Part shown: piece by piece, positions 6,047 through 34,277 of the stretch
How the letters are laid out: the number at the start of each line of letters is the position of its first letter
Position numbering within the stretch: the first letter of the stretch is position 1
Assembly: GCA_963422745.1 (NCBI GenBank)
Contig: OY730477.1
Location: 2,232,880-2,296,879 of the forward strand
Direction: 5' to 3'
DNA: 64,000 nt
Source: Acidimicrobiales bacterium
Lineage (GTDB): Bacteria; Actinomycetota; Acidimicrobiia; Acidimicrobiales; Aldehydirespiratoraceae
Notes under the pieces: generated by a model
The model's input: the letters and a program-made list of their open reading frames with translations, nothing else
Database searches by the model: none
Told to the model about the DNA's origin: nothing
Position numbers and translations under genes: made by a program

Positions 6047-7627
6047 TTGCCTTCGGGCCTCGCCGAGGCTCTAGTGTCTCATGACGTGACGCGGACCGAG
6101 ACGAAGCAGCACGAGACCCAAGCACCGTCACAACGGTTCCACGACCTCGACGCGTTGCGGGGTTTCGCCATGTTGTTGGGGATCGTGTTGCACGCTTCGT
6201 TGTCGTTTCTTCCGGGGTTCTGGCCCGCGGAGGACAACACCGCCAGCTTCGACGGTCCCTACGACGAGATCCTGCATTTCATCCACGGGTTCCGTATGCC
6301 GCTGTTCTTCTTGCTGAGCGGGTTCTTCACCGCCATGTTGTGGCGTCGCCGCGGTTTGCGATCGCTGCTTTCCCAGCGCGTCAAGCGGGTGGCACTGCCG
6401 CTTGCGATCGCAATGATGACGATTATTCCGCTCATGAACTGGGTGTCGGATCAGGCGATCGCCGCACAGATCGACGATCTGTTGATCGGCGCATACACGC
6501 AGAACACCACGGCGGTTGAGGACCTGCTCACCAATGGAGCGCATCCTGACAAGGCACGCGGATCTCAAGGTGAAACACCGTTGCATGCGGCGGCGGTGCT
6601 TGACGACGCCGAGATCGCCGAGTTGCTGCTGGAGGCGGGCGCTGACCCGGTCGCCCTTGACATCAAAGGCGACAGTCCGCTCGCGTGGGCGTATTACTCG
6701 GGTTCAGAGGAAGTAGCGGACCTGCTCATCGCCGCGGGACACCCCGAGATCCGCCCTGGCGGAACCGATTGGGAGGATCTGGACAACTGGGGATTCGGAG
6801 CGTCCGAATCCGACGAGGATGACGTAGGACTCGAGTCCTGGGTGGCGAGCTTTCATCATCTTTGGTTCTTATGGTTCATTTTGTGGCTCGTGGCGGGGTT
6901 CGCTGTCATCGCTGCGATCAACGACAGCCGTCTCACCTCCGGTACCGGTGTTCAACAATCCGAGGGCGGCTCGACCACGTCGTCCTGGCCGGGCAGATTG
7001 ATGTGGGTACTCATCCCGCTGACACTGCTTCCGCAGTTCGCGATGGGTGAACAGGGAGAGGTTCCGACGTTCGGCCCCGACACCTCGATCGGTGTCGTTC
7101 CGCTATGGCATGTGCTCGCCTATTACGCCGTCTTCTTCGGGTTCGGCGCCCTCGCCTACGCACGAAAAACTCCTGCGGGCAAGCCTGTTATTGAGGTCGT
7201 CGGTCGGGGTTGGATGATCATCTTGGCTGTGACCGTGCTGGTTGTGTTTCCGGTGGCTCTCGGATTCACATTCGACGGGGATTGGTACCTCGCGTCGATC
7301 TTGCAAGTCTCTTATGCGTGGGCGATGATCTTCGGGTTGTTGGGGGCATTTCGGGCGTGGTTTGCAACCGAGCGCCGCGGCGTGCGGTATCTGTCGGACT
7401 CGTCATACTGGCTGTATATCGTGCACCTCCCTCTGGTCATCTGGTTGCAGTCGTGGATCAGCGAATGGGATCTTCCCTCAGGCGTGAAGTTCGTCGGTCT
7501 CAATGTCACAGTGGGCGCCTTCTTGCTGTTGACCTATCGGTTGTTTGTGCGGTACACGCCGATCGGCACGTTGCTCAACGGCAAACGAATTCGCCCAGAT
7601 AGGGCTGCCACAGCCCCGGGGACCTGA
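6047..7627 (+). CDS. membrane acyltransferase family 3 protein with inserted ankyrin repeats
   Basis: FHDLDALRGFAMLLGIVLHASL...FRMPLFFLLSGFF...RVKRVALPL is the acyltransferase_3 N-terminal signature, with multiple TM segments throughout. An insert of about 70 aa (GETPLHAAAVLDDAEIAELLLEAGADPVALDIKGDSPLAWAYYSGSEEVADLLIAAGH, roughly nt 6557..6750) has ankyrin consensus. The start is uncertain (TTG 6047 or GTG 6074). Confidence 0.75.
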   Translation: MPSGLAEALVSHDVTRTETKQHETQAPSQRFHDLDALRGFAMLLGIVLHASLSFLPGFWPAEDNTASFDGPYDEILHFIHGFRMPLFFLLSGFFTAMLWRRRGLRSLLSQRVKRVALPLAIAMMTIIPLMNWVSDQAIAAQIDDLLIGAYTQNTTAVEDLLTNGAHPDKARGSQGETPLHAAAVLDDAEIAELLLEAGADPVALDIKGDSPLAWAYYSGSEEVADLLIAAGHPEIRPGGTDWEDLDNWGFGASESDEDDVGLESWVASFHHLWFLWFILWLVAGFAVIAAINDSRLTSGTGVQQSEGGSTTSSWPGRLMWVLIPLTLLPQFAMGEQGEVPTFGPDTSIGVVPLWHVLAYYAVFFGFGALAYARKTPAGKPVIEVVGRGWMIILAVTVLVVFPVALGFTFDGDWYLASILQVSYAWAMIFGLLGAFRAWFATERRGVRYLSDSSYWLYIVHLPLVIWLQSWISEWDLPSGVKFVGLNVTVGAFLLLTYRLFVRYTPIGTLLNGKRIRPDRAATAPGT

Positions 7628-7673
7628 TTCGGTAGTTGTTATCGGCAGGATTCCGTAGTTGTTATCGGCAGGT
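7628..7673 (+). repeat. 23-bp tandem direct repeat (x2) at the left edge of cassette A
   Basis: ttcggtagttgttatcggcagga / ttccgtagttgttatcggcaggt. A related copy, cccgtagtttatacagg, lies at 11914..11930 at the right edge of the cassette. Confidence 0.8.
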
Positions 7674-7675
7674 TT

Positions 7676-7725
7676 GCCAGCGGGTGGAGTCCGGGTTATG
7701 GTGCAAGGTTCAGGGGGGACTTGAC
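7676..7725 (+). promoter_or_regulatory. conserved leader/promoter region upstream of the PLA2-lectin gene (copy A)
   Basis: gccagcgggtggagtccgggttatggtgcaaggttcaggggggacttgacATG is nearly identical to 54480..54534 and partly to 59590..59669. AGGGGGG is a likely SD 8-9 nt before the ATG. Confidence 0.35.
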
Positions 7726-14699: not shown

Positions 14700-16963
14700 C
14701 CAGGCCTTTCATCGGCGCGACGTTGGCCGATAGCCGAGCCCCCAGGGTTCCACAGCCGTATCGCGGCGACGCGCCCAACATCGTGGTGATCGTCCTCGAC
14801 GATCTCGGTTTTGCCCAACTTGGTTGCTACGGGTCCGACATCGCAACCCCGAACATTGATCGACTGGCTGCGAGCGGAGTGCGTTTCACCAACTTTCACA
14901 CCACCGCCATCTGCTCTCCCACTCGCGCCTGTCTGCTGACTGGGCGCAACCACCACCGAACCGGCATGGGGATGCTGCCGGATCTGCCGATTAGCTATCC
15001 GGGCTATACCGGTGTGTTCCCCGACGACACCGCAACGATCGCCGAAGTGCTGCGCGACGCTGGTTACGCAACCTTTGCGATCGGCAAGTGGCACTTGGTG
15101 CCTCGCGACCAACGAGCGACCGGGCCGTTTGACATGTGGCCAACTGGTGTCGGCTTCGATCGCTATTACGGGTTCTTGAACGGGGAAACGAACCAGTGGA
15201 CACCGAACCTGATCCGTGACCAGCATCACGTTGAACCTCCGAGCAGACCCGAAGATGGCTATCACCTTGACGCCGACCTGGCCGATGAGGCGATCCGTCA
15301 ACTCCGCGATTATCGCCTTCACCAACCGAACCGTCCGTTCTTGTTGTGGTACGCCACTGGTTCCCCTCACGCTCCGCATCAAGCACCCCGAGAGTGGATC
15401 AACCGCTACGAGGGCTGCTTCGACGCGGGTTGGGATCTTTGGCGCACCCGTACACTCGCCCGCCAGCAGGAACTCGGTGTCGTGCCGAGCCATGTTGAGC
15501 TGTCGAAACGACCCGACTGGATCGAACCATGGAACGCTGTCGACCCGCAACGCCAGCGCCTTTATGCCCGGATGATGGAGGTCTTTGCTGGCTTTTTGTC
15601 ACACACAGACCATCACATCGGCCGGGTTTTGGACGCTGTTGAAGCTCTCGGCGATACCAGCAACACCATCGTGGCGCTTATCTCAGACAACGGCGCTTCC
15701 GCAGAAGGTGGCCCGCACGGTTCCTGGAACCAGTTGCGTCACTACATCGCCGATACACCCGACGATATTGAAACCGAACTCGCCCACATCGACGATCTCG
15801 GTGGTTTCCGCTCAAGCGGTCACTACCCCTGGGGATGGGCCCTGGCAGGCAACACACCGTTCCGGCGATGGAAGCGCTACACACTCGAAGGCGGTGTCCG
15901 TGATCCGCTCATCGTCTCGTGGCCCAAGAAAATCACCGACCACGGCTCGCTGCGTCACCAGTACATCCACGCCGTAGACGTACCGGTCACGCTGCTCGGG
16001 CTGGCAGAAGTTGAACTGCCAACAATGCGCGGCGGTATTGAGCAGACCTCCTACGACGGTGTCTGCATGATCGACGTCCTAGCTGACCCGAACGCACCGA
16101 GCCTGCGGACAGTCCAGTACTACGAATGCTGGGGCAGCCGCGCGATCTACGCCGACGGCTTCAAGGCCGTGACCGACCACGTCAACCAGCTCACCGCCAC
16201 GGAACGCAACCTCATCGACGGAAGTCACGACTTCGCCACCGACCGTTGGCAGCTATTTGACGTCAACAGTGACTTCACCGAAAGCAACGACCTCGCCTCT
16301 GAGCACGGTGACAAACTGGCGGACTTGATTGGGCTATGGAACCGCGAAGCTCAACGGAACCAGGTCCTGCCGATCGATGACGGTATGGGCAACCGGATAG
16401 CTCATTTGCATCTTCCCTGGTTTCAGTTCAAGGCTCGCCACGACCTCAAACCCGGTGACAAGATCCACGAGGTCAACGGCCCGAACCTGACCGGCGGGTT
16501 CCGCATGACCGCAAGCTTCGAGCTGGCACTGAGCACCAACGACACAGGCGTCGTATGCGAGCAGGGCGATTGGCTTAACGGCTGGGCCTGGTTTCTCACC
16601 GACGGTGCCGCTCACTGGGTTCTGGTAACCGACGGCGCCGAACACCGGGCGAAGCTCCCGCTGTGCGGCGGCGAACGACTCCTGGTGGTCGACGCGACGC
16701 CCAACAGCGATGGATGCCAGCTCAGTTTGCATGGCGACTCCGAGCATCAAACCACGGCAATCTTCACGGCCGCGCCGCCAGCAGTGTTGAGCCCGGACGG
16801 GTCGTTTCTCACGGTCGGATACGCCCGGCCGTTTCCGGTCAGCACCGACTACGAGCCGCCGTCTCCCGCTCCCGATTCCCTCGTATCGGTCCAGATCACA
16901 ACCGGCCCGCCACCGGTCCTGGACTTTGAGCAGGTCTTTGAGAACATGATGAAGCACCAGTAA
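14696..16963 (+). CDS. arylsulfatase (formylglycine-dependent sulfatase family)
   Basis: NIVVIVLDDLGFAQLGCYG...TTAICSPTRACLLTGRNHH (C-x-P-x-R motif). 755 aa. GTGA overlap with the SDR stop. Confidence 0.85.
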   Translation: MTRPFIGATLADSRAPRVPQPYRGDAPNIVVIVLDDLGFAQLGCYGSDIATPNIDRLAASGVRFTNFHTTAICSPTRACLLTGRNHHRTGMGMLPDLPISYPGYTGVFPDDTATIAEVLRDAGYATFAIGKWHLVPRDQRATGPFDMWPTGVGFDRYYGFLNGETNQWTPNLIRDQHHVEPPSRPEDGYHLDADLADEAIRQLRDYRLHQPNRPFLLWYATGSPHAPHQAPREWINRYEGCFDAGWDLWRTRTLARQQELGVVPSHVELSKRPDWIEPWNAVDPQRQRLYARMMEVFAGFLSHTDHHIGRVLDAVEALGDTSNTIVALISDNGASAEGGPHGSWNQLRHYIADTPDDIETELAHIDDLGGFRSSGHYPWGWALAGNTPFRRWKRYTLEGGVRDPLIVSWPKKITDHGSLRHQYIHAVDVPVTLLGLAEVELPTMRGGIEQTSYDGVCMIDVLADPNAPSLRTVQYYECWGSRAIYADGFKAVTDHVNQLTATERNLIDGSHDFATDRWQLFDVNSDFTESNDLASEHGDKLADLIGLWNREAQRNQVLPIDDGMGNRIAHLHLPWFQFKARHDLKPGDKIHEVNGPNLTGGFRMTASFELALSTNDTGVVCEQGDWLNGWAWFLTDGAAHWVLVTDGAEHRAKLPLCGGERLLVVDATPNSDGCQLSLHGDSEHQTTAIFTAAPPAVLSPDGSFLTVGYARPFPVSTDYEPPSPAPDSLVSVQITTGPPPVLDFEQVFENMMKHQ

Positions 16964-16971
16964 CGGTGGAT

Positions 16972-17616
16972 CTACCCACGCGAAGGTGACGCCCCAAAGA
17001 TCCCGGGCATGCCAACAAACCCTGGTATTCGTTTGACCCGGTCACTGAAGCGGCGCAACGCCGGGTAGTCCAGCCGGGAAATACCGCCCTCCTCGGACAA
17101 GATCACGTCCCCGAAGATGGCTAGGTCGGCGATCGTTGGGTGATCACCCGAACACACCCAGTCGCGGTTTTCGCGTTCGCGGAACCACAGATGTTCATCA
17201 AGGAAACCGAAGAGCTTGTGGGCACCAGCTCGACACGAGTCGATGTCGAAATCATAGTCGAAGTTCACATGCAGGCGGGCCGCAGAAGCGGTGTTGGTGG
17301 TGCCTTCCGCGAACAGCATCCATTGTGCGGTCTCGCCGAGCAGCTGGGGATCGCCGACCGGGTACCACAGGCCACTGGAATCGTACTTCGCGGCTAGGTA
17401 CACGAGGATCGCGTGGGCGTCGCGCAACACGTATCCGTCGTCGTCAATGACCGGGATGTGCCCGAGCGGGTTGATCTTCTTGAACTCGGTGCCCTTGTGT
17501 TCGCATCCCGGATAGAAGTCGATCGGCACTGATTCGTAGTCAACGTCGAGGATGCTCATCAACAACCGCTGCTTGTAGCAGTTGACCGACAGCACGTAGT
17601 CATACAACGTGATCAC
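16972..17616 (-). CDS. glutathione S-transferase-like protein (NdmE-like position)
   Basis: MITLYDYVLSVNCYKQRLLMSILDVDYESVPIDF...INPLGHIPVIDDDGYVLRDAHAILVYLAAKY is a GST thioredoxin-like N-domain. The GTG start forms a GTGA overlap with the upstream reductase stop. Confidence 0.75.
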   Translation of the reverse strand: MITLYDYVLSVNCYKQRLLMSILDVDYESVPIDFYPGCEHKGTEFKKINPLGHIPVIDDDGYVLRDAHAILVYLAAKYDSSGLWYPVGDPQLLGETAQWMLFAEGTTNTASAARLHVNFDYDFDIDSCRAGAHKLFGFLDEHLWFRERENRDWVCSGDHPTIADLAIFGDVILSEEGGISRLDYPALRRFSDRVKRIPGFVGMPGIFGASPSRG

Positions 17617-19394
17617 AGGTCAAGCACCAACCGGTCGGACCTTGCCCGTGACACACATGTCATGATCCGCTGGCCCGCCCGACGCTCCGATTCATTCAGG
17701 TAGACGTCTTGATGCTCGGGTTCGCCGTTGATCACCGTGGCCACACAGGTGCCGCAGGCTCCCTGCTCACATGACGACACGATGGGTATGCCGTGATTCC
17801 GCAGCACCTCAAGGATGGTAGATCCCGCGGGAACCGTCAGGGTTATCGCCGAGCGTGCCAGAGCGATCTCGAACGAAGAGGAGTCGTTGATCTCGGTTGT
17901 GTTCTTGAAGTACTCAAAGTGCACACTGCGATCGGGCCAGCCAGCGGCGGCTGCGATCCGCCGAGCCGCCTCCAGCATGGGCCCGGGCCCGCAGATGTAG
18001 ATGTTGGTGGCGTCGTGGGGTTCGGCCAGGATTCGTTGGAGTTCGGTTTGGGTCTGCTCGGGGGACAGCCCGAGGTGGTTGGTGACCGATCCGCGCAGTC
18101 CTTCGAGCACGTCGGGAAAAGCGAGATGGTTCTTGCTCTGGGCGAAGCAGTACAGGTCGAAGTTGAGGTTCATGCGGTCAAGCGCCTGGGCCATGGACAG
18201 CAAAGGCGTGATCCCGATTCCTCCGGCTATGAGAATCGTCCGAACCGAGTCGCGGCGCAGCGGAAAATTGTTGCGGGGCTCCGATACCGCCAGGACGTCA
18301 CCTTCACGGACGCTGTGATGCAGACAGTCCGATCCTCCTGCGGAGTTGGGTTCCAGTTTGACGCCGATGCGGTAATACGATGTCTCGCCGGGGCCGTTGG
18401 TGATCGAATACTGGCGTACGAGACCGTTCGGGAGGTGCACATCAATATGTGCCCCGGGTTGAAATGTAGGCAGCGAACCGGAAACCGGATCGAGCTGAAA
18501 CCCAGCGATGTCTTCGCTTACCTGCCATTTGCGTCCTACCGTGACCCGCAACGCTGCCCGGCGCCCGCCGCCGGGCTCGGGGAGTTCCGCCAGACGCAGC
18601 GGTAGGTTTTCGAGCGTTGGCACCATCGGCTCAGGTTGTGGCAGTCCTGCGGCCTCGGCATTGATCCTGTTGATGAGCTCGGTGAGTTCGTGGGCGTAAT
18701 GACGCCACACCGCCATCTGGTCCTGCGGCGGTGGGGACTCGGTGAGCACACCGCGGATAACCGATCGGGCGGAGTCGACCGGCTGCACGAAGAACACGGC
18801 CGTGGTCACCGCTTCGGCGTCGCGGGCGCTCAAAGTGATTGAGTAGTCACCGACCTCGTCGACGGTCACCTCGGCGTCGTTGCCTTCATCGGCGACAAGG
18901 GCGTTGATGCGCAGCGACGGAGCGAAGCGGTGATTGCGAAGGTGTTTCAGTACCAACTCCGCGGAGGCGTCGACCGGCAAGTTCCGCAGCACGAACGGCG
19001 TAGCGTCGGTGAGGCAGTCGACCGTGGGACCGTCCCCGACGGGTTCCTCACCGGTCCAGATAAGCCCGTAGCGCAGCACCACGGGAAAGATCCGATTGCA
19101 GATCGTGCGGGCCGGGGCGTCAGCAGGATGGGCGGGGATGTAAGTACAGCCCGCCGACCGGTTGGCGTAGCGCCAGCCGTGGTACCCGCAGCGAAGTTCG
19201 GTGCCGTCGCTAGTCCCGATGGAGAGCCGCACACCACGATGCAAGCAGCGGTTCTCCCACACATTGACGAAGTCGTCGTCGGCTCGCCAGATAGCTAGTT
19301 CCCGGCCGAGGAGTTGGCCCTGATACACGTGGCGATATGGCACGTCGAATTCACAGGCAACAGGATGCCAAAGCGTGAACGGGTCGATTGTCAT
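17613..19394 (-). CDS. Rieske [2Fe-2S] domain fused to an FNR-like flavin reductase and a plant-type [2Fe-2S] ferredoxin (NdmD-like)
   Basis: N-terminus CLHRGVRLS-x-CGYHGWRY (Rieske). Middle RQYSITN...ILIAGGIGITPLLSM (flavin/NAD binding). C-terminus CEQGACGTCVATV...TCVSRA (2Fe-2S). ATG 19394 (MTIDPF...) lies 1 nt after the upstream stop. Confidence 0.85.
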   Translation of the reverse strand: MTIDPFTLWHPVACEFDVPYRHVYQGQLLGRELAIWRADDDFVNVWENRCLHRGVRLSIGTSDGTELRCGYHGWRYANRSAGCTYIPAHPADAPARTICNRIFPVVLRYGLIWTGEEPVGDGPTVDCLTDATPFVLRNLPVDASAELVLKHLRNHRFAPSLRINALVADEGNDAEVTVDEVGDYSITLSARDAEAVTTAVFFVQPVDSARSVIRGVLTESPPPQDQMAVWRHYAHELTELINRINAEAAGLPQPEPMVPTLENLPLRLAELPEPGGGRRAALRVTVGRKWQVSEDIAGFQLDPVSGSLPTFQPGAHIDVHLPNGLVRQYSITNGPGETSYYRIGVKLEPNSAGGSDCLHHSVREGDVLAVSEPRNNFPLRRDSVRTILIAGGIGITPLLSMAQALDRMNLNFDLYCFAQSKNHLAFPDVLEGLRGSVTNHLGLSPEQTQTELQRILAEPHDATNIYICGPGPMLEAARRIAAAAGWPDRSVHFEYFKNTTEINDSSSFEIALARSAITLTVPAGSTILEVLRNHGIPIVSSCEQGACGTCVATVINGEPEHQDVYLNESERRAGQRIMTCVSRARSDRLVLDL

Positions 19395-19395
19395 C

Positions 19396-20289
19396 TCAAC
19401 CGGTGCCGGGGATAACCCCATAGGTGACGCCGAGGTCGCTCAACCAGCGACGGTAGGCAATCGCCACCTTGTCGGCACGGATCGGGGTCTCGGCCCGCGG
19501 ATCAAGCGGCAGTCGTTTCGGATGCTGGTTCTCCAAGATGGGCTTGTCCTGACCGAAGATCGTTTGCTGAAAGCGCCGGATCACGGTGGCGGTGTTCTCA
19601 TCGTCAACAAGGCACATAAGCATGCACGCCCGGATTCGGTCTGCCGCAACAGGCTGGCAGAACAACCCGATCACATCCATCCGCTCTGGATCAGCCGGAC
19701 ATGACTTGTACAACAACACGCAATAGGGGTGCGGCACCCGATAGATGTAATCTGTCATCTGGCCCCCGGTGGCGGTCACCGCGGCCATCGGCTGCCAGAA
19801 CATGCAATCGGTTGCCCAGATGTCGTTTGTGTCGGGATCGACCCGGACCTGATAGTCCGCAACCTCGGTGTGCGGTTCAACACCAAGGATGTTCGTGTGC
19901 ACGAACGGAAAATGACCCATATCCAAAAAGTTCTCAACCGCTCGAGGTGCAGAGGTACTCACGCCGATGGTGCCAGTATGCACGCTCCTACGATCGGGCT
20001 CATAGAACTCCGCCACCTCAAACAACTCGTCCGGAGGGTCGCCGAGGCTGGTCCACAGATTCAGATACTGCAACCGGGTTGGTAATGCTTGAGCGGTTGC
20101 GTCCCGGGTCCGCCGAACAAACGGTCGGCCGTCTCCGGACATGGTCACCTCAACGGGTTCACCAAGCAGGGTCGTCGTGTAGACCACACCGACCTCAAAC
20201 TGCTCAATTGAGCCCAACGGATGCCACTGATCCAAAACAACCCGGTCATCGCAGCGCGGTGCGGTCCCTGTTTGAGTAGCCGACGTCAT
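19396..20289 (-). CDS. Rieske-oxygenase catalytic (non-heme iron) subunit lacking the Rieske cluster ligands (NdmC-like)
   Basis: ENFLDMGHFPFVH matches the mononuclear-iron motif of Rieske oxygenase alpha subunits. The N-terminal ~100 aa have no CxH...CxxH. ATG 20289 is preceded by GGAGG; the track start at 20469 runs through a relic fragment. Confidence 0.7.
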   Translation of the reverse strand: MTSATQTGTAPRCDDRVVLDQWHPLGSIEQFEVGVVYTTTLLGEPVEVTMSGDGRPFVRRTRDATAQALPTRLQYLNLWTSLGDPPDELFEVAEFYEPDRRSVHTGTIGVSTSAPRAVENFLDMGHFPFVHTNILGVEPHTEVADYQVRVDPDTNDIWATDCMFWQPMAAVTATGGQMTDYIYRVPHPYCVLLYKSCPADPERMDVIGLFCQPVAADRIRACMLMCLVDDENTATVIRRFQQTIFGQDKPILENQHPKRLPLDPRAETPIRADKVAIAYRRWLSDLGVTYGVIPGTG

Positions 20290-20422
20290 CTCGGACCTCC
20301 GGGCAGACTCCGTAACCAGAGAATCATCCACTAATCCCAAAGCATGGTCAAGGCAGTAGCACTCGTACTTCACCCTTTCATGGACTTGCGGTCGTGTCAG
20401 GCTGCTGGCTCTCGGCAACATT

Positions 20423-20532
20423 TTGCTGGTTCGGTAGAACCGGTCGTCGCTAACCAGCAGGCTCCTCATGTTTCAAGCATTACGGTCTTCGATGAAGTGG
20501 CTGACTATCTCCTCTGCAGTGGCGGGCCTAGC
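20423..20532 (-). pseudogene. relic of about 110 bp from the 836-aa HhH-repeat gene
   Basis: ttgctggttcggtagaaccggtcgtc...gcgggcctagc matches 22407..22516. It encodes ..EEIVSHF.EDRNA...DDRFYRTSK.., as in ORF 21657..24167. Confidence 0.7.
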
Positions 20533-20558
20533 TGGCGCCTCGAGGTCGGAGTCGGGTT

Positions 20559-21479
20559 GTGATCGATTCGTTCGAGACCTTCGTCACCGAGCGGTATCCG
20601 GCCGGGAAGTTGACGCCGCTCAGTGATTCGAACAACCGGGTGTACCGCGTCGACGATTCGGGGGCGTCTCTGATCGTCAAACACATCACCGACGTAGACA
20701 TACCACTCGACTACCTCGCCACCGTGAACCACGTGATCGGAACCCGGCTGCCCACCCAACGGGTGGTCGAGATCCACCAGGCCGATGCCGACCGAGCGCT
20801 CGACATCGTGATCTCCCAATACGTGCTGGGCGTCGACCTCGCGTCGGTCGTCGGCCAACCGGATCGCAGCCCCGAGCCGGACACGCTGGCCCGGTTCTTC
20901 GTCGACTTCATCGAATCGATGTTTGAGGCTCCTCCACTGCACCCTGGCTTCGGGCTTTTTAAGCGAGGCGCCCCCATGTTCGACCGCCGATCCGAGTTCC
21001 TCGAGTACTACGCATCCCGATACTGGGGGCGGGCTCGACCCTTCTTCGACCACTCGGTCCAGGCCCTGGTGGATCGATGGGTCGGGGGCGGGCTGGGGGC
21101 GGCCGTCGCCGCCGAGGACGCCGACGCCACGGTGGCGATCGACGCAAATCTGAAGAACTTCCTGGTCTCGCACGACCGCTCGCTGACCGTCCTCAACGTC
21201 CCGATCGCTGGCACCTCGTCGGTCAGCCACGCCGTCGGAGCCTTGAGCGTGCACCTTCGCCACCACCCGGCCCGAACCTACTTCCTCGACGAAGCGAGCC
21301 GACGACTCCAGTCAGTTTCCACCGACCTGATCCCCCACTTCGAGATGTGGAACATGCTCGGGATCCTCTCCTTTTATGCGGTTCGAGAGCCAGACGAGCC
21401 CGACCGATGGAGGAACTTCGCCTCGCCCCGGGGACTGCGGGACGACTTCGAAGACCTCGCCCAGTCGGCGATCGGCTGA
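20559..21479 (+). CDS. putative kinase-like (APH/ChoK phosphotransferase fold) protein
   Basis: NNRVYRVDDSGASLIVKH (nucleotide-lobe-like) and AIDANLKNFLV (DxxxxN catalytic-loop spacing). No clear DFG/IDW equivalent was seen, so the call is weak. The antisense ORF 20505..21266 was judged spurious. Confidence 0.35.
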   Translation: MIDSFETFVTERYPAGKLTPLSDSNNRVYRVDDSGASLIVKHITDVDIPLDYLATVNHVIGTRLPTQRVVEIHQADADRALDIVISQYVLGVDLASVVGQPDRSPEPDTLARFFVDFIESMFEAPPLHPGFGLFKRGAPMFDRRSEFLEYYASRYWGRARPFFDHSVQALVDRWVGGGLGAAVAAEDADATVAIDANLKNFLVSHDRSLTVLNVPIAGTSSVSHAVGALSVHLRHHPARTYFLDEASRRLQSVSTDLIPHFEMWNMLGILSFYAVREPDEPDRWRNFASPRGLRDDFEDLAQSAIG

Positions 21480-21656
21480 GGTGGCATCGTGATACTCACC
21501 GGCCAGGCCATCTCCTGGGCTGTGCGCAACGCGACGATCGTCATCGACCCGTTCATCGAATCGAGCGTCAACCCGAACAGTCACAACTAACGGCTGCCTC
21601 AACCCGACTCGGAGGATGTTCCCCGGTTCGTTGCGCCTTGCAGCGTCTGCCGCGAG

Positions 21657-24167
21657 TTACTGCTCGACAACAGCGGTGTCGCCCGGTAGGAGCGGTATCA
21701 GATCATCATCACCACGGCTTCGCAGTGCAGCGAGAAGTTCAGGTTTGGAGACACCGATCGCTGCTGCGAGAGCGCCCTGCACATCAGGTTCGTCACCGAT
21801 CCCGGTCAGGGCCTTCAATCTTTGCAGACCCTGTTGAGAGACATCCACAAGATGACACGTCGCGTATCGGTGTTTGGTGTTGAGTTCCATCACGAGCAAA
21901 TCTTCGGGTTGGCCACCCAGTGCCTTCACCGCTGGGCGCAGTGAACCCAACTCGGCACCATAAGAGGTCGCGTGCCAATAGAAGGCAATGTCCTGATGTA
22001 TTGACGCGAACTTCAGGCGCTGGCCCGGACGAAGATCAAGTTGCGATGCCATACCCGGATCGATCACCCGACCTGATCCTCGCAACAGTTCTTCGTTCAC
22101 AACGAAATGGGTGATCAGCCGAGAAGGCGATGGCCGGAAACATTGTCCAGAGTCCTTGAGCGGCCGTGGCTTGAACTCGAATGCTTCATCGTCGCGGCGT
22201 TTACGGACAAATGATTCCTCGATCACGAAGGCGGGAGCCTTGAGATAAGTCCTTACTGAACTCTCCGCTACGTCAAATAGCGACACGAGTTCCTCGATGA
22301 GCATAGCTACGTCGGTTCTGCCCCCATCTCTGTCGATCCTTTCAATGATCTCATTCGTGATACCCGAATACTCTTCTAGTTCCCACTCGCGTAGCGCCCA
22401 CTCGAACTTGCTGGTTCGGTAGAACCGGTCGTCATTGGCTAGTGCGTTCCTTATGCTTCGGGCATTGCGGTCTTCGGTGAAGTGACTGACGATCTCCTCG
22501 GGTGTAGCGGGCCTAGCCAACAACGCAAACACGACTGCTGCTTTGTCGGGAATTGTCCCATACCACTTCACAAAAAGACCATCACCGATGTCTCGCAACA
22601 GGCCAATGCTTGATATGACACTGGTCAGGGTGGACGCGGGTATCTCTGCTTGGGCCATGATTTCTATGAGCTGGTCGCGCGTGAGCAGTGGCCGGTCGTG
22701 ATCGCGAATCGCGCGGGTCACAGCGACTTTGGGATTTTCTCCTGCTCGGACAAGCCAGTCGTCTTGTTTGTTGTATGGCCCCGCATACCATAAGACGATC
22801 CGTTGTTCGTCAGATTCATCGGCGAGGACCGACAATGCCAGTGAGCTGTTGAGCGGTACACCCGAACCGAGTTGGGTTGCAAGGTCATATGCCCGCCAGC
22901 GGAAAGTTTCAAGTCGATGGTCGTTCTCGATGGCGTTTCTGACGACACTGCTGGCTCGTTGATTCTGCCTGCGCGCAGCTTCTGCAGTAATTCCAAAACG
23001 CTTACCCAATACTGCGAACGATGGCGGTCTATCTGTACGGTAGAGATTCCTCTCAGACCAGATGTGGCGTTTGCGTTCATCGCCTAAGATGTCTTGCACG
23101 CTGAATGCATCATCGGCTTCTACCTCCTTAGACTCCTTGACGGCTCCCCAGGACTGCAAGGAACACGAAAGAAGCTCATCCGCTGCGTTGACCACATCAG
23201 GGGGTGCTGCTGTCGGGTGCCATCCCAACAACTCGACCATGTCACCGAGGGTCGGGCTTTCGCGACCCTTGTACCGTAACCACCGGATCAGAAGCGCTGT
23301 AGCTGAACAGACTGAAGCGGGTAGCTGCAGCACCGGTATTGGTTCTGCTGCATGCCGACGACACCATTGCAAAATATCATCTACGGTTTTGTCGCCAACA
23401 TTGCGAATCCCCTTAATCGCGTTGATATCCAAACCCAGAATCTGTTCCCATGAATCAATACCAGCAATACGAAGGGCATTGCAGGCTCGCATTGGTAACT
23501 CAGCAACCGGTGCTGGACCCTGCCGCGCGGCGAGCGCCGGAAACATCTCATCAATCCGACTGACCTCAGATATGACGAAACCCGTAGATTGACCGCTATT
23601 CGACTCCGGTTCTGCTGCATGCCGACGACACCATTGCAAAATATCATCTACGGTTTTGTCGCCAACATTGCGAATCCCCATGATCGCGTTGATATCCAAA
23701 CCCAGAATCTGTTCCCATGAATCAATACCAGCAATACGAAGGGCATTGCAGGCTCGCATTGGTAACTCAGCAACCGGTGCTGGACCCTGCCGCGCGGCGA
23801 GCGCCGGAAACATCTCATCAATCCGAGTGATCTCGGATATTACAGAACCCCTAGATAGGCCGCTGTTGGGCTTCGGTTCTGCTGCATGCCGACGACACCA
23901 TTGCAAGATGTCGCTTACGGTCGTTTCGCCAACATTGCGAATCCCCTTAATCGCGTCAATGTCCAAATCCAGAATCTGTTCCCATGAATCAATACCAGCA
24001 ATACGAAGGGCATTGCAGGCTCGCATTGGTAACTCAGCAACCGGTGCTGGACCCTGCCGCGCGGCGAGCGCCGGAAACATCTCATCAATCCGAGTGATCT
24101 CGGTCGTGGCCGAATCCCCAGATGGGCCGCTGTTGGGCTTCGATTCAACTATTTGTTTGTTCACCAT
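21657..24167 (-). CDS. 836-aa protein: three tandem RpoA-alphaCTD-like helix-hairpin-helix repeats plus a large uncharacterised C-terminal region
   Basis: Long uninterrupted ORF. The N-terminus has three 89-aa units ...VAELPMRACNALRIAGIDSWEQILGLDINAIKGIRNVGDKTVDDILQWCRRHAAEP. The pattern L..R..N.L...GI.....L......L..I.N.G.K....I matches the RNA polymerase alpha C-terminal domain. GC is visibly lower than in the flanks. Confidence 0.7.
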   Translation of the reverse strand: MVNKQIVESKPNSGPSGDSATTEITRIDEMFPALAARQGPAPVAELPMRACNALRIAGIDSWEQILDLDIDAIKGIRNVGETTVSDILQWCRRHAAEPKPNSGLSRGSVISEITRIDEMFPALAARQGPAPVAELPMRACNALRIAGIDSWEQILGLDINAIMGIRNVGDKTVDDILQWCRRHAAEPESNSGQSTGFVISEVSRIDEMFPALAARQGPAPVAELPMRACNALRIAGIDSWEQILGLDINAIKGIRNVGDKTVDDILQWCRRHAAEPIPVLQLPASVCSATALLIRWLRYKGRESPTLGDMVELLGWHPTAAPPDVVNAADELLSCSLQSWGAVKESKEVEADDAFSVQDILGDERKRHIWSERNLYRTDRPPSFAVLGKRFGITAEAARRQNQRASSVVRNAIENDHRLETFRWRAYDLATQLGSGVPLNSSLALSVLADESDEQRIVLWYAGPYNKQDDWLVRAGENPKVAVTRAIRDHDRPLLTRDQLIEIMAQAEIPASTLTSVISSIGLLRDIGDGLFVKWYGTIPDKAAVVFALLARPATPEEIVSHFTEDRNARSIRNALANDDRFYRTSKFEWALREWELEEYSGITNEIIERIDRDGGRTDVAMLIEELVSLFDVAESSVRTYLKAPAFVIEESFVRKRRDDEAFEFKPRPLKDSGQCFRPSPSRLITHFVVNEELLRGSGRVIDPGMASQLDLRPGQRLKFASIHQDIAFYWHATSYGAELGSLRPAVKALGGQPEDLLVMELNTKHRYATCHLVDVSQQGLQRLKALTGIGDEPDVQGALAAAIGVSKPELLAALRSRGDDDLIPLLPGDTAVVEQ
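23341..24141 (-). repeat. 267-bp tandem repeat x3 (in-frame, 89 aa each) inside ORF 21657..24167
   Basis: The marker ggttctgctgcatgccgacgacaccattgcaa occurs at 23341, 23608 and 23875, giving a period of 267. Confidence 0.9.
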
Positions 24168-32910: not shown

Positions 32911-34277
32911 CAGGTATCGGTTCTGGGCGCTTGGACCTCCGCCGGGATGATCGCATCGTCGGCGAGCAACTCGCGGCCCGGGTCGTCGGCGAGCAACTCG
33001 CTGGCCGGATCGTCGACGAGCAACTCGCGGCCCGGATCGAACGGGTTGCCCTCTTGCACCATCCGGCGCCACTCGATCAGTGAGATGTCGGGGCGGTAAA
33101 GCCGCTCGGGGGGCGCGTCGGTGGCCTCAACCATCCAGCCGTCCTGGTTCGAGAAGTTCCCGTGGAACAGCCAGCGAATTCCGCAGAGGTACTTGGCAAA
33201 GAACAACGCCCGAGCCGGCCCGGTCTTGAACTGCACCATCACCCCGACGTATCGGGTGCGACCCTGTTCGATCGGAACGTAGAACTCATAGTGGATGAAC
33301 TGCGGGTAAGCGATGCGCAAGACGCCGGGCATGCTCAAAGACGCGAAGCCGGGCAAGTCCTGGCCGACAATGTAGGGATCGTTCTTCTTCGACCCTCCGG
33401 TGTTGCCCAGCATCCGGCCCTGCTGCTGCTTCGGCTTGATCTTCCACCAGCGGGCGTTGCTCCAAGATCCGAGGCCCTCGAACTCAGCGTCCCAGTGCCG
33501 CTCGTCCTCGATGCGGTAGATCCATCGCCCGTGTCGTTCTATGTGGACGATGTTCCAAGTGGGCATCGTCTTGAAGATTCGCCAGTACGAGGTCCTATGA
33601 AGGTACTTGGCGTGGCCCTCATCAAAGCCGTTCTCGGCAAACAAGCGCCAGTCTCCGTCGCGGTCTTCGATCCGGCCGCCGACCGAGTAGCTGGGCGGGT
33701 CCTGGAGTTCTGCGGGAAGCTGATCGCGCAACAGATGGGGCTCCCGGTCGCCAACGAAGACCCAAACCAAGCCGATCGCCTCGTCGGTTGGGTACGTCCG
33801 GACACGCACCTTGTTGCACATCGGGGAGTCGGGGCCGTCGGTAATGACAGCCACCAACTCGCCGTCTGAGAGGTTGTAGGTCCAGGCGTGATAAGGGCAG
33901 GTCACGGTGCCTGGAAATTCTTCTGTGCCCATTGACAGTGGCACACCGCGGTGCAGGCAGCGATCATGCAAGCCATAGGCGGTGCCGTGCTGATCGCGCT
34001 GCAACATGATGTCTTCGCCGCAGACGCGCACCCCGAAGGGTTTGCGGCTGACTTGGGCGGACCAGCACACGGGATACCAGTAGTTGCGTAGCCCTTCAAC
34101 GGCCGCGTCGTAGGCGGGCCAGGTACCCCAGTCGGCTCGACCGGTTGAGGTAGAGGCTCCATCACCGCGTTTGCGGCGGGCCATCAGCGCGGCCGCCCGT
34201 TCGGCGGTGCTCGGAGCGTCCTCGATTCGTGGCGGAGTCGATTCGTTGACAGTCATGTCGTTACCCGGGCCGTTCAT
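32910..34277 (-). CDS. Rieske [2Fe-2S] oxygenase alpha-subunit-like protein with an acidic nonapeptide-repeat tail
   Basis: CLHRGVPLS...CPYHAWTY (Rieske) and ENGFDEGHAKYLH (mononuclear iron). The C-terminus is GRELLVDDPASELLADDPGRELLADDAIIPAEVQAPRTDT. Confidence 0.85.
   Translation of the reverse strand: MNGPGNDMTVNESTPPRIEDAPSTAERAAALMARRKRGDGASTSTGRADWGTWPAYDAAVEGLRNYWYPVCWSAQVSRKPFGVRVCGEDIMLQRDQHGTAYGLHDRCLHRGVPLSMGTEEFPGTVTCPYHAWTYNLSDGELVAVITDGPDSPMCNKVRVRTYPTDEAIGLVWVFVGDREPHLLRDQLPAELQDPPSYSVGGRIEDRDGDWRLFAENGFDEGHAKYLHRTSYWRIFKTMPTWNIVHIERHGRWIYRIEDERHWDAEFEGLGSWSNARWWKIKPKQQQGRMLGNTGGSKKNDPYIVGQDLPGFASLSMPGVLRIAYPQFIHYEFYVPIEQGRTRYVGVMVQFKTGPARALFFAKYLCGIRWLFHGNFSNQDGWMVEATDAPPERLYRPDISLIEWRRMVQEGNPFDPGRELLVDDPASELLADDPGRELLADDAIIPAEVQAPRTDT

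What the first reader, a model, noticed from the sequence alone, without database searches (positions are those of the whole stretch)
16972..20289. Three-gene Rieske oxygenase with NdmC/NdmD/NdmE-like division of labour
The gene order on the minus strand is as follows.
1. A catalytic non-heme-iron subunit that keeps the ENFLDMGHFPFVH iron motif but has no Rieske CxH/CxxH ligands (19396..20289).
2. A 593-aa reductase with an extra N-terminal Rieske domain (CLHRG...CGYHGWRY), then an FNR-like module, then a plant-type ferredoxin (17613..19394).
3. A GST-like protein (16972..17616).

The genes are joined by a 1-nt gap and a GTGA overlap. This is the arrangement described for the caffeine N7-demethylase NdmCDE of Pseudomonas putida CBB5. 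There the oxygenase lacks the Rieske cluster, the reductase NdmD supplies it, and the GST-like NdmE is a structural partner.

Finding the same tripartite logic in a high-GC, actinobacterial-like genome, next to a sulfatase and SDR, suggests a demethylase or oxygenase for an unknown substrate.
Basis: partly seen in the sequence, partly recalled or inferred. Interest (0 to 1): 0.65.

Follow-up and report, generated by a model that had tools for sequence, protein, structure and literature searches.

The report
NdmCDE-type split Rieske oxygenase operon
This is an intact three-gene oxygenase of the kind first described for caffeine breakdown: the catalytic subunit has lost its iron-sulfur cluster, the reductase carries that cluster, and a glutathione-transferase-like protein accompanies them; it is a new Acidimicrobiales member of a known, widespread family, and its substrate is still unknown.

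Summary
C (19396-20289, minus strand) keeps the ENFLDMGHFPFVH iron motif but lacks the Rieske cluster-binding loops. D (17613-19394) has a Rieske domain, an FNR-like module and a plant-type ferredoxin. E (16972-17616) is GST-like. The junctions are a 1-nt gap and a GTGA overlap.

The NdmCDE interpretation holds on direct comparison. C is 47% identical to P. putida CBB5 NdmC (E 8e-91). D is 35% identical over its full length to a Pseudomonas NdmD orthologue. E is 56% identical to the adjacent NdmE orthologue. C-D-E order is kept in 71 of 80 related loci, from Acidimicrobiia and Hyphomicrobiales.

The window's C lies in a sister clade to NdmC, so 7-methylxanthine is unlikely to be the substrate. 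Related loci repeatedly carry a PnrA/BMP-type ABC transporter, purine or pyrimidine deaminases and formaldehyde-detoxification genes. That points to N-methylated purine-like substrates for the family. None of these genes is in the window, and the sulfatase and SDR are not conserved neighbours.

One extra finding: the first ~285 residues of D are a whole alpha-subunit paralogue with a degenerate iron site, complementary to C.

Homologous ndmCDE clusters of unknown function were already reported in 2013, so this is a new member of a known kind.

The parts
19396..20289 (-). C: catalytic non-heme-iron oxygenase subunit (297 aa). It is NdmC-like, with a vestigial Rieske domain that lacks the cluster ligands. 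The bridging Asp is D123 and the Fe ligands are H126, H131 and D248.
   Evidence: Pfam finds VanA_C only. 47% identity to NdmC, E 8e-91. The Rieske loops are deleted relative to NdmA/NdmB. D123, H126, H131 and D248 are invariant in 125 homologues. The AF2 model has pLDDT 92.8 and matches SxtT/GxtA at TM 0.83.
19050..19394 (-). D residues 1-115: Rieske [2Fe-2S] domain with ligands C50, H52, C69 and H72.
   Evidence: Pfam Rieske hit, E 7e-15. The four ligands are invariant across the D family, including the NdmD orthologue and the stand-alone Rhizobium protein.
18540..19049 (-). D residues ~116-285: degenerate remnant of an oxygenase catalytic (helix-grip) domain, without conserved iron ligands, plus a linker.
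   Evidence: The AF2 model has pLDDT above 90 for residues 100-255. Foldseek aligns D(1-285) over ~290-310 columns to whole SxtT/GxtA alpha subunits, E 1e-15. hhalign of the D family vs the C family gives 95% probability, E 3e-8, collinear; C's His ligands fall in a gap of D.
17904..18554 (-). D residues ~281-497: FNR-like flavin- and NAD(P)H-binding module (RQYS and GGIGITP motifs).
   Evidence: Pfam FAD_binding_6, NAD_binding_1 and DmmA-like_N hits. Residues 281-593 match phthalate dioxygenase reductase 2pia, E 4e-60.
17613..17873 (-). D residues ~508-593 plus the stop codon: plant-type [2Fe-2S] ferredoxin domain.
   Evidence: Pfam Fer2 hit, E 5e-15. Matches the NdmD ferredoxin domain 6icm_D, E 4e-21.
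16972..17616 (-). E: NdmE-like GST-fold protein (214 aa, GTG start overlapping the D stop).
   Evidence: Pfam GST_N and GST_C hits. 56% identity to a Pseudomonas NdmE orthologue, E 1e-90. It is the most conserved of the three genes, at 77-82% among Acidimicrobiia. The N-terminus MITLYDY matches the homologues.
20290..20351 (-). Upstream region of the operon: Shine-Dalgarno GGAGG (20296-20300) and one weak sigma-70-like match (TTGACC-17-GATGAT, 20351-20323).
   Evidence: Sequence read. The consensus scan found 2 sites against 1.0 expected by chance, so this is only suggestive.

Best explanation
The three genes form one operon that encodes an NdmCDE-type, three-protein Rieske-type monooxygenase.

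**Proposed electron path (inferred from domain content and from the characterised NdmCDE system).** NAD(P)H reduces the flavin in the FNR-like module of D. Electrons then pass to D's C-terminal plant-type [2Fe-2S] cluster. From there they pass to the Rieske [2Fe-2S] cluster in D's N-terminal domain, and across a protein-protein interface to the mononuclear iron of C. C's iron ligands are H126, H131 and D248, and D123 is the conserved bridging carboxylate. O2 is activated at that iron.

**Relationship of C and D.** C and the first ~285 residues of D are homologous over their whole lengths. C has lost the Rieske loops and D has lost the iron ligands. The pair probably recreates the head-to-tail Rieske-to-iron contact that normally links neighbouring identical alpha subunits.

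**Role of E.** E is the GST-like partner. In NdmCDE this protein is required for solubility and activity and is thought to be structural.

**Likely reaction and substrate.** The most likely reaction is oxidative N-demethylation that releases formaldehyde. The most likely substrate class is an N-methylated purine-like heterocycle, not 7-methylxanthine itself. The substrate of this particular copy is not determined.
For: **Shown**
- Domain content and cofactor ligands.
- Specific end-to-end similarity to NdmC (47%), an NdmD orthologue (35%) and an NdmE orthologue (56%), with the same gene order as the Pseudomonas ndm cluster.
- C-D-E adjacency in 71 of 80 related loci.
- Purifying selection on C: dN/dS 0.18, the same as neighbouring genes.
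- C and D(1-285) both have a whole alpha-subunit fold and are profile-homologous with complementary losses.

**Inferred**
- Formaldehyde release and purine-like substrates rest on gene context in relatives. PnrA/BMP-type ABC transporter components occur in 19 of 32 actinobacterial and 44 of 48 other loci. Adenine, adenosine, CDA-type or amidohydrolase deaminases occur in 19 of 32 actinobacterial loci. FrmA-like ADH or a FghA-like esterase occurs in 15 of 48 other loci.
- The Pseudomonas ndm cluster likewise holds an FrmA-like ADH and an esterase.
- The roles of NdmC, NdmD and NdmE are taken from review PMC4408171.
Against: - No biochemical data exist for this protein or for any member of its clade.
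- The window holds no BMP transporter, no deaminase and no formaldehyde-detoxification gene, so the substrate inference is borrowed from relatives that are 57-68% identical.
- The window's C is in a sister clade to NdmC.
- The best solved-structure matches, SxtT/GxtA, are hydroxylases rather than demethylases.
- The D(1-285) model is only moderately confident: mean pLDDT 76, with the Rieske loops below 50.
- In the closest related genome most of D and all of E are deleted, so this copy may be dispensable.
Confidence: 0.75

Rival explanations
1. It is a true orthologue of NdmCDE and demethylates 7-methylxanthine as the last step of a caffeine or theobromine pathway.
For: It has the same three-gene architecture, with 47%, 35% and 56% identity to NdmC and to the NdmD and NdmE orthologues.
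Against: In the NJ tree the window's C sits in the Acidimicrobiia and Hyphomicrobiales clade, not the beta/gamma-proteobacterial clade that holds NdmC. The window has no ndmA/ndmB-like Rieske demethylase, xanthine permease or frm genes next to the operon, whereas the Pseudomonas and Klebsiella clusters do.
Confidence: 0.07
2. The complex has the same architecture, but the chemistry is C- or N-hydroxylation of a heterocycle (as SxtT/GxtA do on saxitoxin precursors) rather than demethylation.
For: The best solved relatives of C are SxtT and GxtA, by sequence (E 2e-25) and by fold (TM 0.83). Many actinobacterial relatives have 2OG oxygenases and deaminases but no formaldehyde-detoxification genes nearby.
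Against: The nearest characterised relative by a wide margin is the demethylase NdmC. FrmA-like or FghA-like genes flank 15 of 48 alphaproteobacterial relatives. GCV_T aminomethyltransferase-like genes occur in 6 actinobacterial loci.
Confidence: 0.15
3. The operon is a decaying, non-functional remnant that has been stranded from its original transporter and catabolic context.
For: There are no conserved partner genes in the window. In the closest genome the 3' two thirds of D and all of E are deleted.
Against: All three ORFs are intact and all cofactor ligands are conserved. The translational coupling is preserved. C has dN/dS 0.18, equal to its neighbours.
Confidence: 0.05
4. E is catalytic rather than merely structural. 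For example, it might couple glutathione to the released formaldehyde or to the substrate.
For: E is the most conserved of the three proteins (77-82% among Acidimicrobiia against 58-68% for C). It keeps an invariant N-terminal LYDYxLSxxCYK motif with Ser10 and Cys13. GSH-dependent formaldehyde dehydrogenase-like and esterase genes are frequent neighbours.
Against: The literature assigns NdmE a structural role (PMC4408171, PMC13237722). The usual E-S pair that precedes the AILxYL helix in GSTs reads D-A in the window, NdmE-orthologue and other close sequences, though E-S is kept in two relatives. High conservation is equally expected for a protein that contacts two partners.
Confidence: 0.15

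Closest known systems
NdmCDE, the 7-methylxanthine N7-demethylase complex of Pseudomonas putida CBB5 (Summers et al. 2013, as summarised in PMC4408171)
   Same: Rieske-less catalytic subunit, reductase with an extra N-terminal Rieske domain, and a GST-like third protein. The gene order C-D-E is the same. Identity is 47% to NdmC itself, and 35% and 56% to the NdmD and NdmE orthologues of a Pseudomonas ndm cluster. All cofactor ligands are conserved.
   Different: The phylum differs (Actinomycetota, Acidimicrobiales). C belongs to a sister clade. There are no ndmA/ndmB, purine permease or frm genes nearby. The substrate is therefore probably different and is unknown.
Uncharacterised ndmCDE-like clusters of Sinorhizobium, Mesorhizobium and Aminobacter (noted by Summers 2013 according to PMC4408171)
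   Same: These are closer to the window than NdmCDE is: C 55-61%, D about 60%, E about 65%. They have the same C-D-E order.
   Different: They usually have two tandem C genes ahead of one D and one E. They sit beside a GntR regulator and a BMP-type ABC transporter, often with FrmA-like and FghA-like genes. The window has a single C and none of these neighbours.
SxtT and GxtA (saxitoxin Rieske oxygenases) and NdmA/NdmB
   Same: They share the VanA_C-type catalytic domain and the whole alpha-subunit fold, and are the best solved-structure matches.
   Different: They carry their own Rieske cluster and act as homotrimers with a separate reductase. They need no GST partner.
Phthalate dioxygenase reductase (2pia), a class IA reductase
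   Same: D residues 281-593 match it end to end, with FMN/NAD binding followed by a plant-type ferredoxin.
   Different: D has an extra ~280-residue N-terminal alpha-subunit-like module that carries a Rieske cluster.
Rhizobium johnstonii pRlX5 variant (locus L003)
   Same: A Rieske-less C (50% identity) and an E-like GST lie next to an amidohydrolase and a BMP ABC transporter.
   Different: The Rieske-plus-degenerate-domain module is a free-standing 216-aa protein that is not fused to a reductase.

Membership tests
NdmCDE-type split Rieske oxygenase | Catalytic subunit with a VanA_C-type domain and a 2-His-1-carboxylate site but no Rieske CxH/CxxH ligands | tested here: met
   Pfam finds VanA_C only. 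The Rieske loops are deleted relative to NdmA/NdmB and the pattern matches NdmC. H126, H131, D248 and D123 are invariant in 125 homologues.
NdmCDE-type split Rieske oxygenase | Reductase with an N-terminal Rieske domain, then an FNR-like module, then a plant-type ferredoxin, in one chain | tested here: met
   Pfam Rieske, FAD/NAD-binding and Fer2 hits. Collinear 35% identity over the full length with a Pseudomonas NdmD orthologue. C50, H52, C69 and H72 are invariant.
NdmCDE-type split Rieske oxygenase | GST-fold third protein specifically related to NdmE | tested here: met
   56% identity, E 1e-90, to the NdmE orthologue of a Pseudomonas ndm cluster. Solved GSTs give about 1e-14.
NdmCDE-type split Rieske oxygenase | The three genes are contiguous in the order C-D-E | tested here: met
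   1-nt gap and GTGA overlap. The Pseudomonas and Klebsiella clusters have the same order, as do 71 of 80 related loci.
NdmCDE-type split Rieske oxygenase | C, D and E form a tight complex, and E is required for solubility and activity | not testable with these tools
   This needs co-expression and purification. The structure of NdmCDE itself is still unsolved (PMC13237722).
NdmC sensu stricto (7-methylxanthine N7-demethylase) | Orthology to NdmC and a methylxanthine-pathway gene context (ndmA/ndmB, purine permease, frmA/frmB) | tested here: not met
   The NJ tree puts the window's C in a sister clade. None of these context genes is in the window.
NdmC sensu stricto (7-methylxanthine N7-demethylase) | N7-demethylation of 7-methylxanthine with formaldehyde release | not testable with these tools
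   This needs an enzyme assay.
Canonical Rieske oxygenase alpha subunit | Rieske [2Fe-2S] ligands and the mononuclear iron site in the same polypeptide | tested here: not met
   C lacks the Rieske ligands. The N-terminal module of D has them but lacks a conserved His pair.

The most novel reading that the evidence does not exclude
The Acidimicrobiia and Hyphomicrobiales C-D-E family has at least 542 loci among one-genome-per-species representatives. It may be a widespread scavenging system for N-methylated purines or related methylated heterocycles, substrates that no known bacterial pathway handles. It would be built from two complementary degenerate alpha-subunit paralogues (C and the N-terminal half of D) held together by a GST-fold protein. 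The window's copy, which is detached from the usual transporter, would act on a distinct, as yet unknown substrate.
Probability: 0.3. Interest if true: 0.6.

Novelty: new member of a known kind. Interest (0 to 1): 0.4.

Why it matters
NdmCDE is the only characterised Rieske oxygenase in which the Rieske cluster has moved from the oxygenase to the reductase and a GST-like protein is obligatory. Its structure is still unsolved.

This work shows that the architecture is common in Acidimicrobiia MAGs and in rhizobia. It also shows that the gene order is strongly conserved and that the usual neighbours are purine-type transporters and deaminases. Together these give concrete substrate candidates for hundreds of genes now annotated only as 'aromatic ring-hydroxylating dioxygenase subunit alpha'.

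The finding that D's N-terminal half is a whole, degenerate alpha subunit suggests how the complex is assembled. It also gives a worked example of complementary degeneration after duplication.

For this window alone, the result is a better annotation rather than a discovery.

Tried and rejected
- **Longer ORF for C (to 20469).** Rejected. The extension has no Pfam domain or Rieske motif, homologues start near 20289, and there is a strong SD.
- **Sulfatase, SDR, CMD and P450 neighbours as functional partners.** Rejected. They are convergent or on the opposite strand, and none recurs beside the 80 related loci.
- **The 253-aa ORF upstream (20505-21266).** It has no Pfam hit and no similarity to the adjacent 836-aa gene. 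It lies in a 1.24-kb stretch that is absent from the nearest genome. It is probably not part of the system.
- **NCBIfam.** It gave no named family for C and only sub-threshold hits for D and E.
- **The original NdmCDE paper (Summers 2013).** It is not held by DOI or PMC id, so I relied on the authors' review PMC4408171.
- **Literature on Rieske-type methylpurine demethylases and on S. meliloti pSymA tags near the homologous cluster.** The searches found nothing relevant. PLSDB has no annotation for that pSymA region.
- **Looking up CBB5 NdmC on a contig.** Exact look-up failed. I used an 87%-identical Pseudomonas orthologue cluster instead.
- **First crude ORF caller.** It picked antisense ORFs in these high-GC loci and was replaced by a GC3-filtered one. 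Its neighbour counts are lower bounds.
Full report
**1. Observation**

- **C (19396-20289, 297 aa).**
  - It starts at an ATG preceded by GGAGG six bases upstream.
  - The mechanical ORF runs on to 20469, but the extra 60 residues add no domain and no Cys/His motif.
  - Homologues are 284-310 aa long.
  - Pfam finds only the VanA_C catalytic domain (E 4.5e-21) and no Rieske domain.
  - The iron motif ENFLDMGHFPFVH is at residues 119-131.
- **D (17613-19394, 593 aa).** It has a Rieske domain (residues 9-90; C50-L-H52 and C69-G-Y-H72), FAD/NAD-binding modules and a C-terminal Fer2 domain. Residues 281-593 match phthalate dioxygenase reductase end to end (E 4e-60). The last 86 residues match the solved NdmD ferredoxin domain (E 4e-21).
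- **E (16972-17616, 214 aa).** It is a GST-fold protein.
- **Junctions.** The C stop and D start are separated by one base (TGAgATG). The D stop and E start overlap as GTGA.

**2. How the Rieske cluster is missing from C**

Against SxtT, C residues 15-48 align with SxtT 5-38 and C residues 64-292 align with SxtT 102-333. About 60 residues that carry the cluster ligands are therefore replaced by about 15.

I aligned the window's C with four other family members, with NdmC itself and with NdmA/NdmB orthologues. All the Rieske-less proteins share the same two deletions. These remove CAHRS and CPYHGW. The N-terminal WHP strand and the whole catalytic domain remain.

- E119, N120, D123, H126, H131 and D248 are invariant in that alignment.
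- D123, H126, H131 and D248 stay invariant in 125 homologues.
- From general knowledge of Rieske oxygenases, D123 is the carboxylate that bridges a Rieske histidine of one subunit to an iron-ligand histidine of the next. Its retention fits a protein that still receives electrons from a Rieske cluster supplied in trans.

An AlphaFold2 model of C is confident (pLDDT 92.8, pTM 0.91). It superposes on whole SxtT/GxtA alpha subunits (TM 0.83) and on NdmA (TM 0.70).

**3. Direct test of the NdmCDE interpretation**

A homologue search seeded with a Klebsiella plasmid homologue returned the UniProt entry for P. putida methylxanthine N7-demethylase (M1EY73, protein P0128).

- The window's C is 47% identical to it over 282 residues (E 8e-91). 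That is far better than its match to NdmB (1.6e-12), NdmA (1.4e-10) or SxtT (2e-25).
- An 87%-identical Pseudomonas orthologue led to a contig carrying a complete ndm cluster. The cluster holds an FrmA-like ADH, NdmA-like and NdmB-like Rieske oxygenases, a GntR regulator and a xanthine permease. These are followed by NdmC (284 aa), NdmD (588 aa), NdmE (222 aa) and an esterase. The NdmD orthologue matches the solved CBB5 NdmD ferredoxin domain at E 1e-47.
- The window's D is 35% identical to that NdmD orthologue, collinear from residue 9 to the last residue (E 7e-126).
- The window's E is 56% identical to the NdmE orthologue (E 1e-90). The best solved GST gives about 1e-14.

Gene order is identical.

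**4. Distribution and synteny**

- The catalytic subunit has 3908 database relatives at E <= 1e-5. The best 120 are all about 290-310 aa with only a VanA_C domain.
The best 80 come from Acidimicrobiia and other Actinomycetota MAGs, and from Hyphomicrobiales such as Mesorhizobium, Aminobacter, Sinorhizobium and Labrys.
- The nearest genome is an Acidimicrobiales MAG (OY730440.1), with 94% amino-acid and about 95% nucleotide identity.
- In 71 of the 80 loci, C, D and E are adjacent in that order. Five more are cut by a contig or locus end. Only four truly deviate.
- Among the 48 non-actinobacterial loci (mostly Hyphomicrobiales), 31 carry at least two C-like genes, typically two tandem Rieske-less C genes ahead of one D and one E.
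- A Rhizobium plasmid shows a third layout. The Rieske-plus-middle-domain module is a free 216-aa protein beside C and E.
- A neighbour-joining tree rooted on NdmA/NdmB puts all Rieske-less C proteins in one group. The window's C sits in the Acidimicrobiia and Hyphomicrobiales clade. This clade is sister to the beta/gamma-proteobacterial clade that contains NdmC and the Klebsiella homologue. The tree has no support values, so the placement is indicative only.

**5. Substrate clues**

Clustering the neighbours of the 80 loci and annotating representatives with Pfam gave a consistent picture.

| Neighbour type | Actinobacterial loci (n = 32) | Other loci (n = 48) |
|---|---|---|
| PnrA/BMP-type ABC transporter components | 19 | 44 |
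| Adenine, adenosine, CDA-type or amidohydrolase deaminase | 19 | 3 |
| GntR regulator | not detected | 32 |
| FrmA-like Zn-ADH and/or FghA-like esterase | not detected | 15 |
| 2OG oxygenase | 10 | not detected |
| GCV_T-like aminomethyltransferase | 6 | not detected |

These counts come from a crude gene caller and are lower bounds.

The Pseudomonas ndm cluster has the same ADH and esterase pair. The CBB5 cluster map labels its pair frmA/frmB (PMC4408171).

For the family, this supports oxidative N-demethylation of purine-like compounds with formaldehyde release. It does not establish the substrate of the window's own copy:

- None of these genes occurs anywhere in the 64-kb window.
- The adjacent sulfatase, SDR, CMD-family protein and P450 are on the other strand or convergent.
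- None of those neighbours recurs beside any related locus.

**6. An addition to the published picture: D carries a whole degenerate alpha subunit**

Pfam leaves D residues about 116-280 unassigned.

- An AlphaFold2 model of D(1-285) is confident for residues 100-255 (pLDDT above 90) and poor for the cofactor-less Rieske loops.
- Foldseek aligns the model over about 290-310 columns to entire SxtT/GxtA alpha subunits (E about 1e-15, TM 0.55-0.60), not to the Rieske domain alone.
- Independently, profile-profile comparison of the D family with the C family gives 95% probability (E 3e-8). The alignment is collinear from the N-terminal WHP strand to the C-terminal helix. C's His126 and the two following residues fall in a gap of D, and His131 aligns with a non-histidine residue.
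- No residue after about position 136 is invariant across the wider D family.

So C and the N-terminal half of D are paralogues that have lost complementary cofactor sites. In ordinary Rieske oxygenases, electrons pass from the Rieske cluster of one alpha subunit to the iron of its neighbour. The simplest model is that D's N-terminal module takes the place of that neighbour beside C. This is inference, and I did not find it stated in the papers I could read.

**7. Is the operon alive?**

- All ligands and all three reading frames are intact, and translational coupling is preserved.
- Against the nearest genome, C has dN/dS 0.18, the same as the flanking AMP-ligase (0.18) and hydrolase (0.22).
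- In that nearest genome the match to D stops after about residue 198. The segment corresponding to window 7587-18848 (the rest of D, E, sulfatase, SDR, CMD, P450 and a low-GC stretch) is missing. The surviving D fragment there has dN/dS 0.37.
- That genome has a second complete C-D-E set (locus L011). That set might serve the orphan C in trans, much as two C genes share one D and one E in Hyphomicrobiales. This is speculation.

**8. Comparison with what is known, and verdict**

According to the authors' review, NdmC lacks a Rieske cluster, NdmD is a reductase with an extra Rieske cluster, and NdmE is a GST-like protein needed for solubility and activity. The review also says a BLAST search had already found homologous ndmCDE clusters of unknown function in 18 organisms, mostly Sinorhizobium and Mesorhizobium (PMC4408171). 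A 2026 paper states that the structure of the complex is still unsolved (PMC13237722).

The window's operon meets every sequence-level criterion of this architecture. It does not meet the criteria for being NdmC in the narrow sense, either by clade or by context. It is therefore a new member, from Acidimicrobiales, of a known kind.

**Scores.** Interest is moderate (0.4).

- The tripartite logic is unusual and under-studied.
- The purine-linked context and the complementary-degeneration reading are useful leads.
- Set against that, the system itself is not new, and the substrate of this copy remains open.

Noticed in passing
window 7587-18848; L004 9442-9590: This 11.3-kb segment is absent from the nearest genome (OY730440.1). 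It holds a low-GC stretch, P450, CMD, SDR, sulfatase, E and the 3' two thirds of D. In that genome D stops matching after about residue 198, which indicates a deletion through the operon.
   Followed up: partly
window 20421-21662: A 1.24-kb stretch between the 836-aa gene and C is absent from the nearest genome. Its ORFs on either strand have no Pfam hit. 108 bp at 20422-20529 resemble a piece inside the relative's 836-aa gene (L004 7029-7136).
   Followed up: partly
window 21657-24167 (-): This 836-aa ORF has at least three RNA-polymerase alpha-CTD-like helix-hairpin-helix repeats. It lies in a lower-GC stretch (0.54), is internally repetitive, and is only 87% conserved with the nearest genome.
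   Followed up: no
window 6047-7627 (+) and 7737-9131 (+): An Acyl_transf_3 protein with inserted ankyrin repeats is followed by an ORF with a ricin-type lectin domain at the edge of a 48-50% GC region. Such eukaryote-like domains are often seen in host-associated bacteria.
   Followed up: no
window 33759-34103 (-): A second Rieske-domain coding region, 31-35% identical to D-family Rieske domains, lies elsewhere in the window.
   Followed up: no
L028-L083 (e.g. L034 7114-11362): Hyphomicrobiales loci usually carry two tandem Rieske-less C paralogues (about 50% and 58% identical to the window's C) ahead of a single D and E. This implies that two oxygenases share one Rieske-reductase and one GST partner.
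   Followed up: partly
L003 8345-10493 (Rhizobium johnstonii pRlX5): A variant in which the Rieske-plus-degenerate-domain module is a free 216-aa protein with no fused reductase. It sits next to C, E, an amidohydrolase and a BMP ABC transporter.
   Followed up: partly
window 16972-20289 vs L005-L008 and L016-L025: C and D have different nearest relatives. C is closest (66-68%) to loci whose D is 61-65% identical. D is closest (70-74%) to Acidimicrobiaceae loci whose C is only 57-59% identical. E is the most conserved of the three (77-82%). This may reflect module shuffling or unequal rates.
   Followed up: no
L011 8001-11320 (OY730440.1, 2.73 Mb): The nearest genome has a second, complete C-D-E set (62%, 64% and 80% identical to the window's proteins) far from the first. 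Whether the window's genome has one too is unknown.
   Followed up: no
window 56001-64000: The GC content drops from about 0.60 to 0.49-0.53 with a strongly negative GC skew. This could be a different genomic compartment or an island.
   Followed up: no
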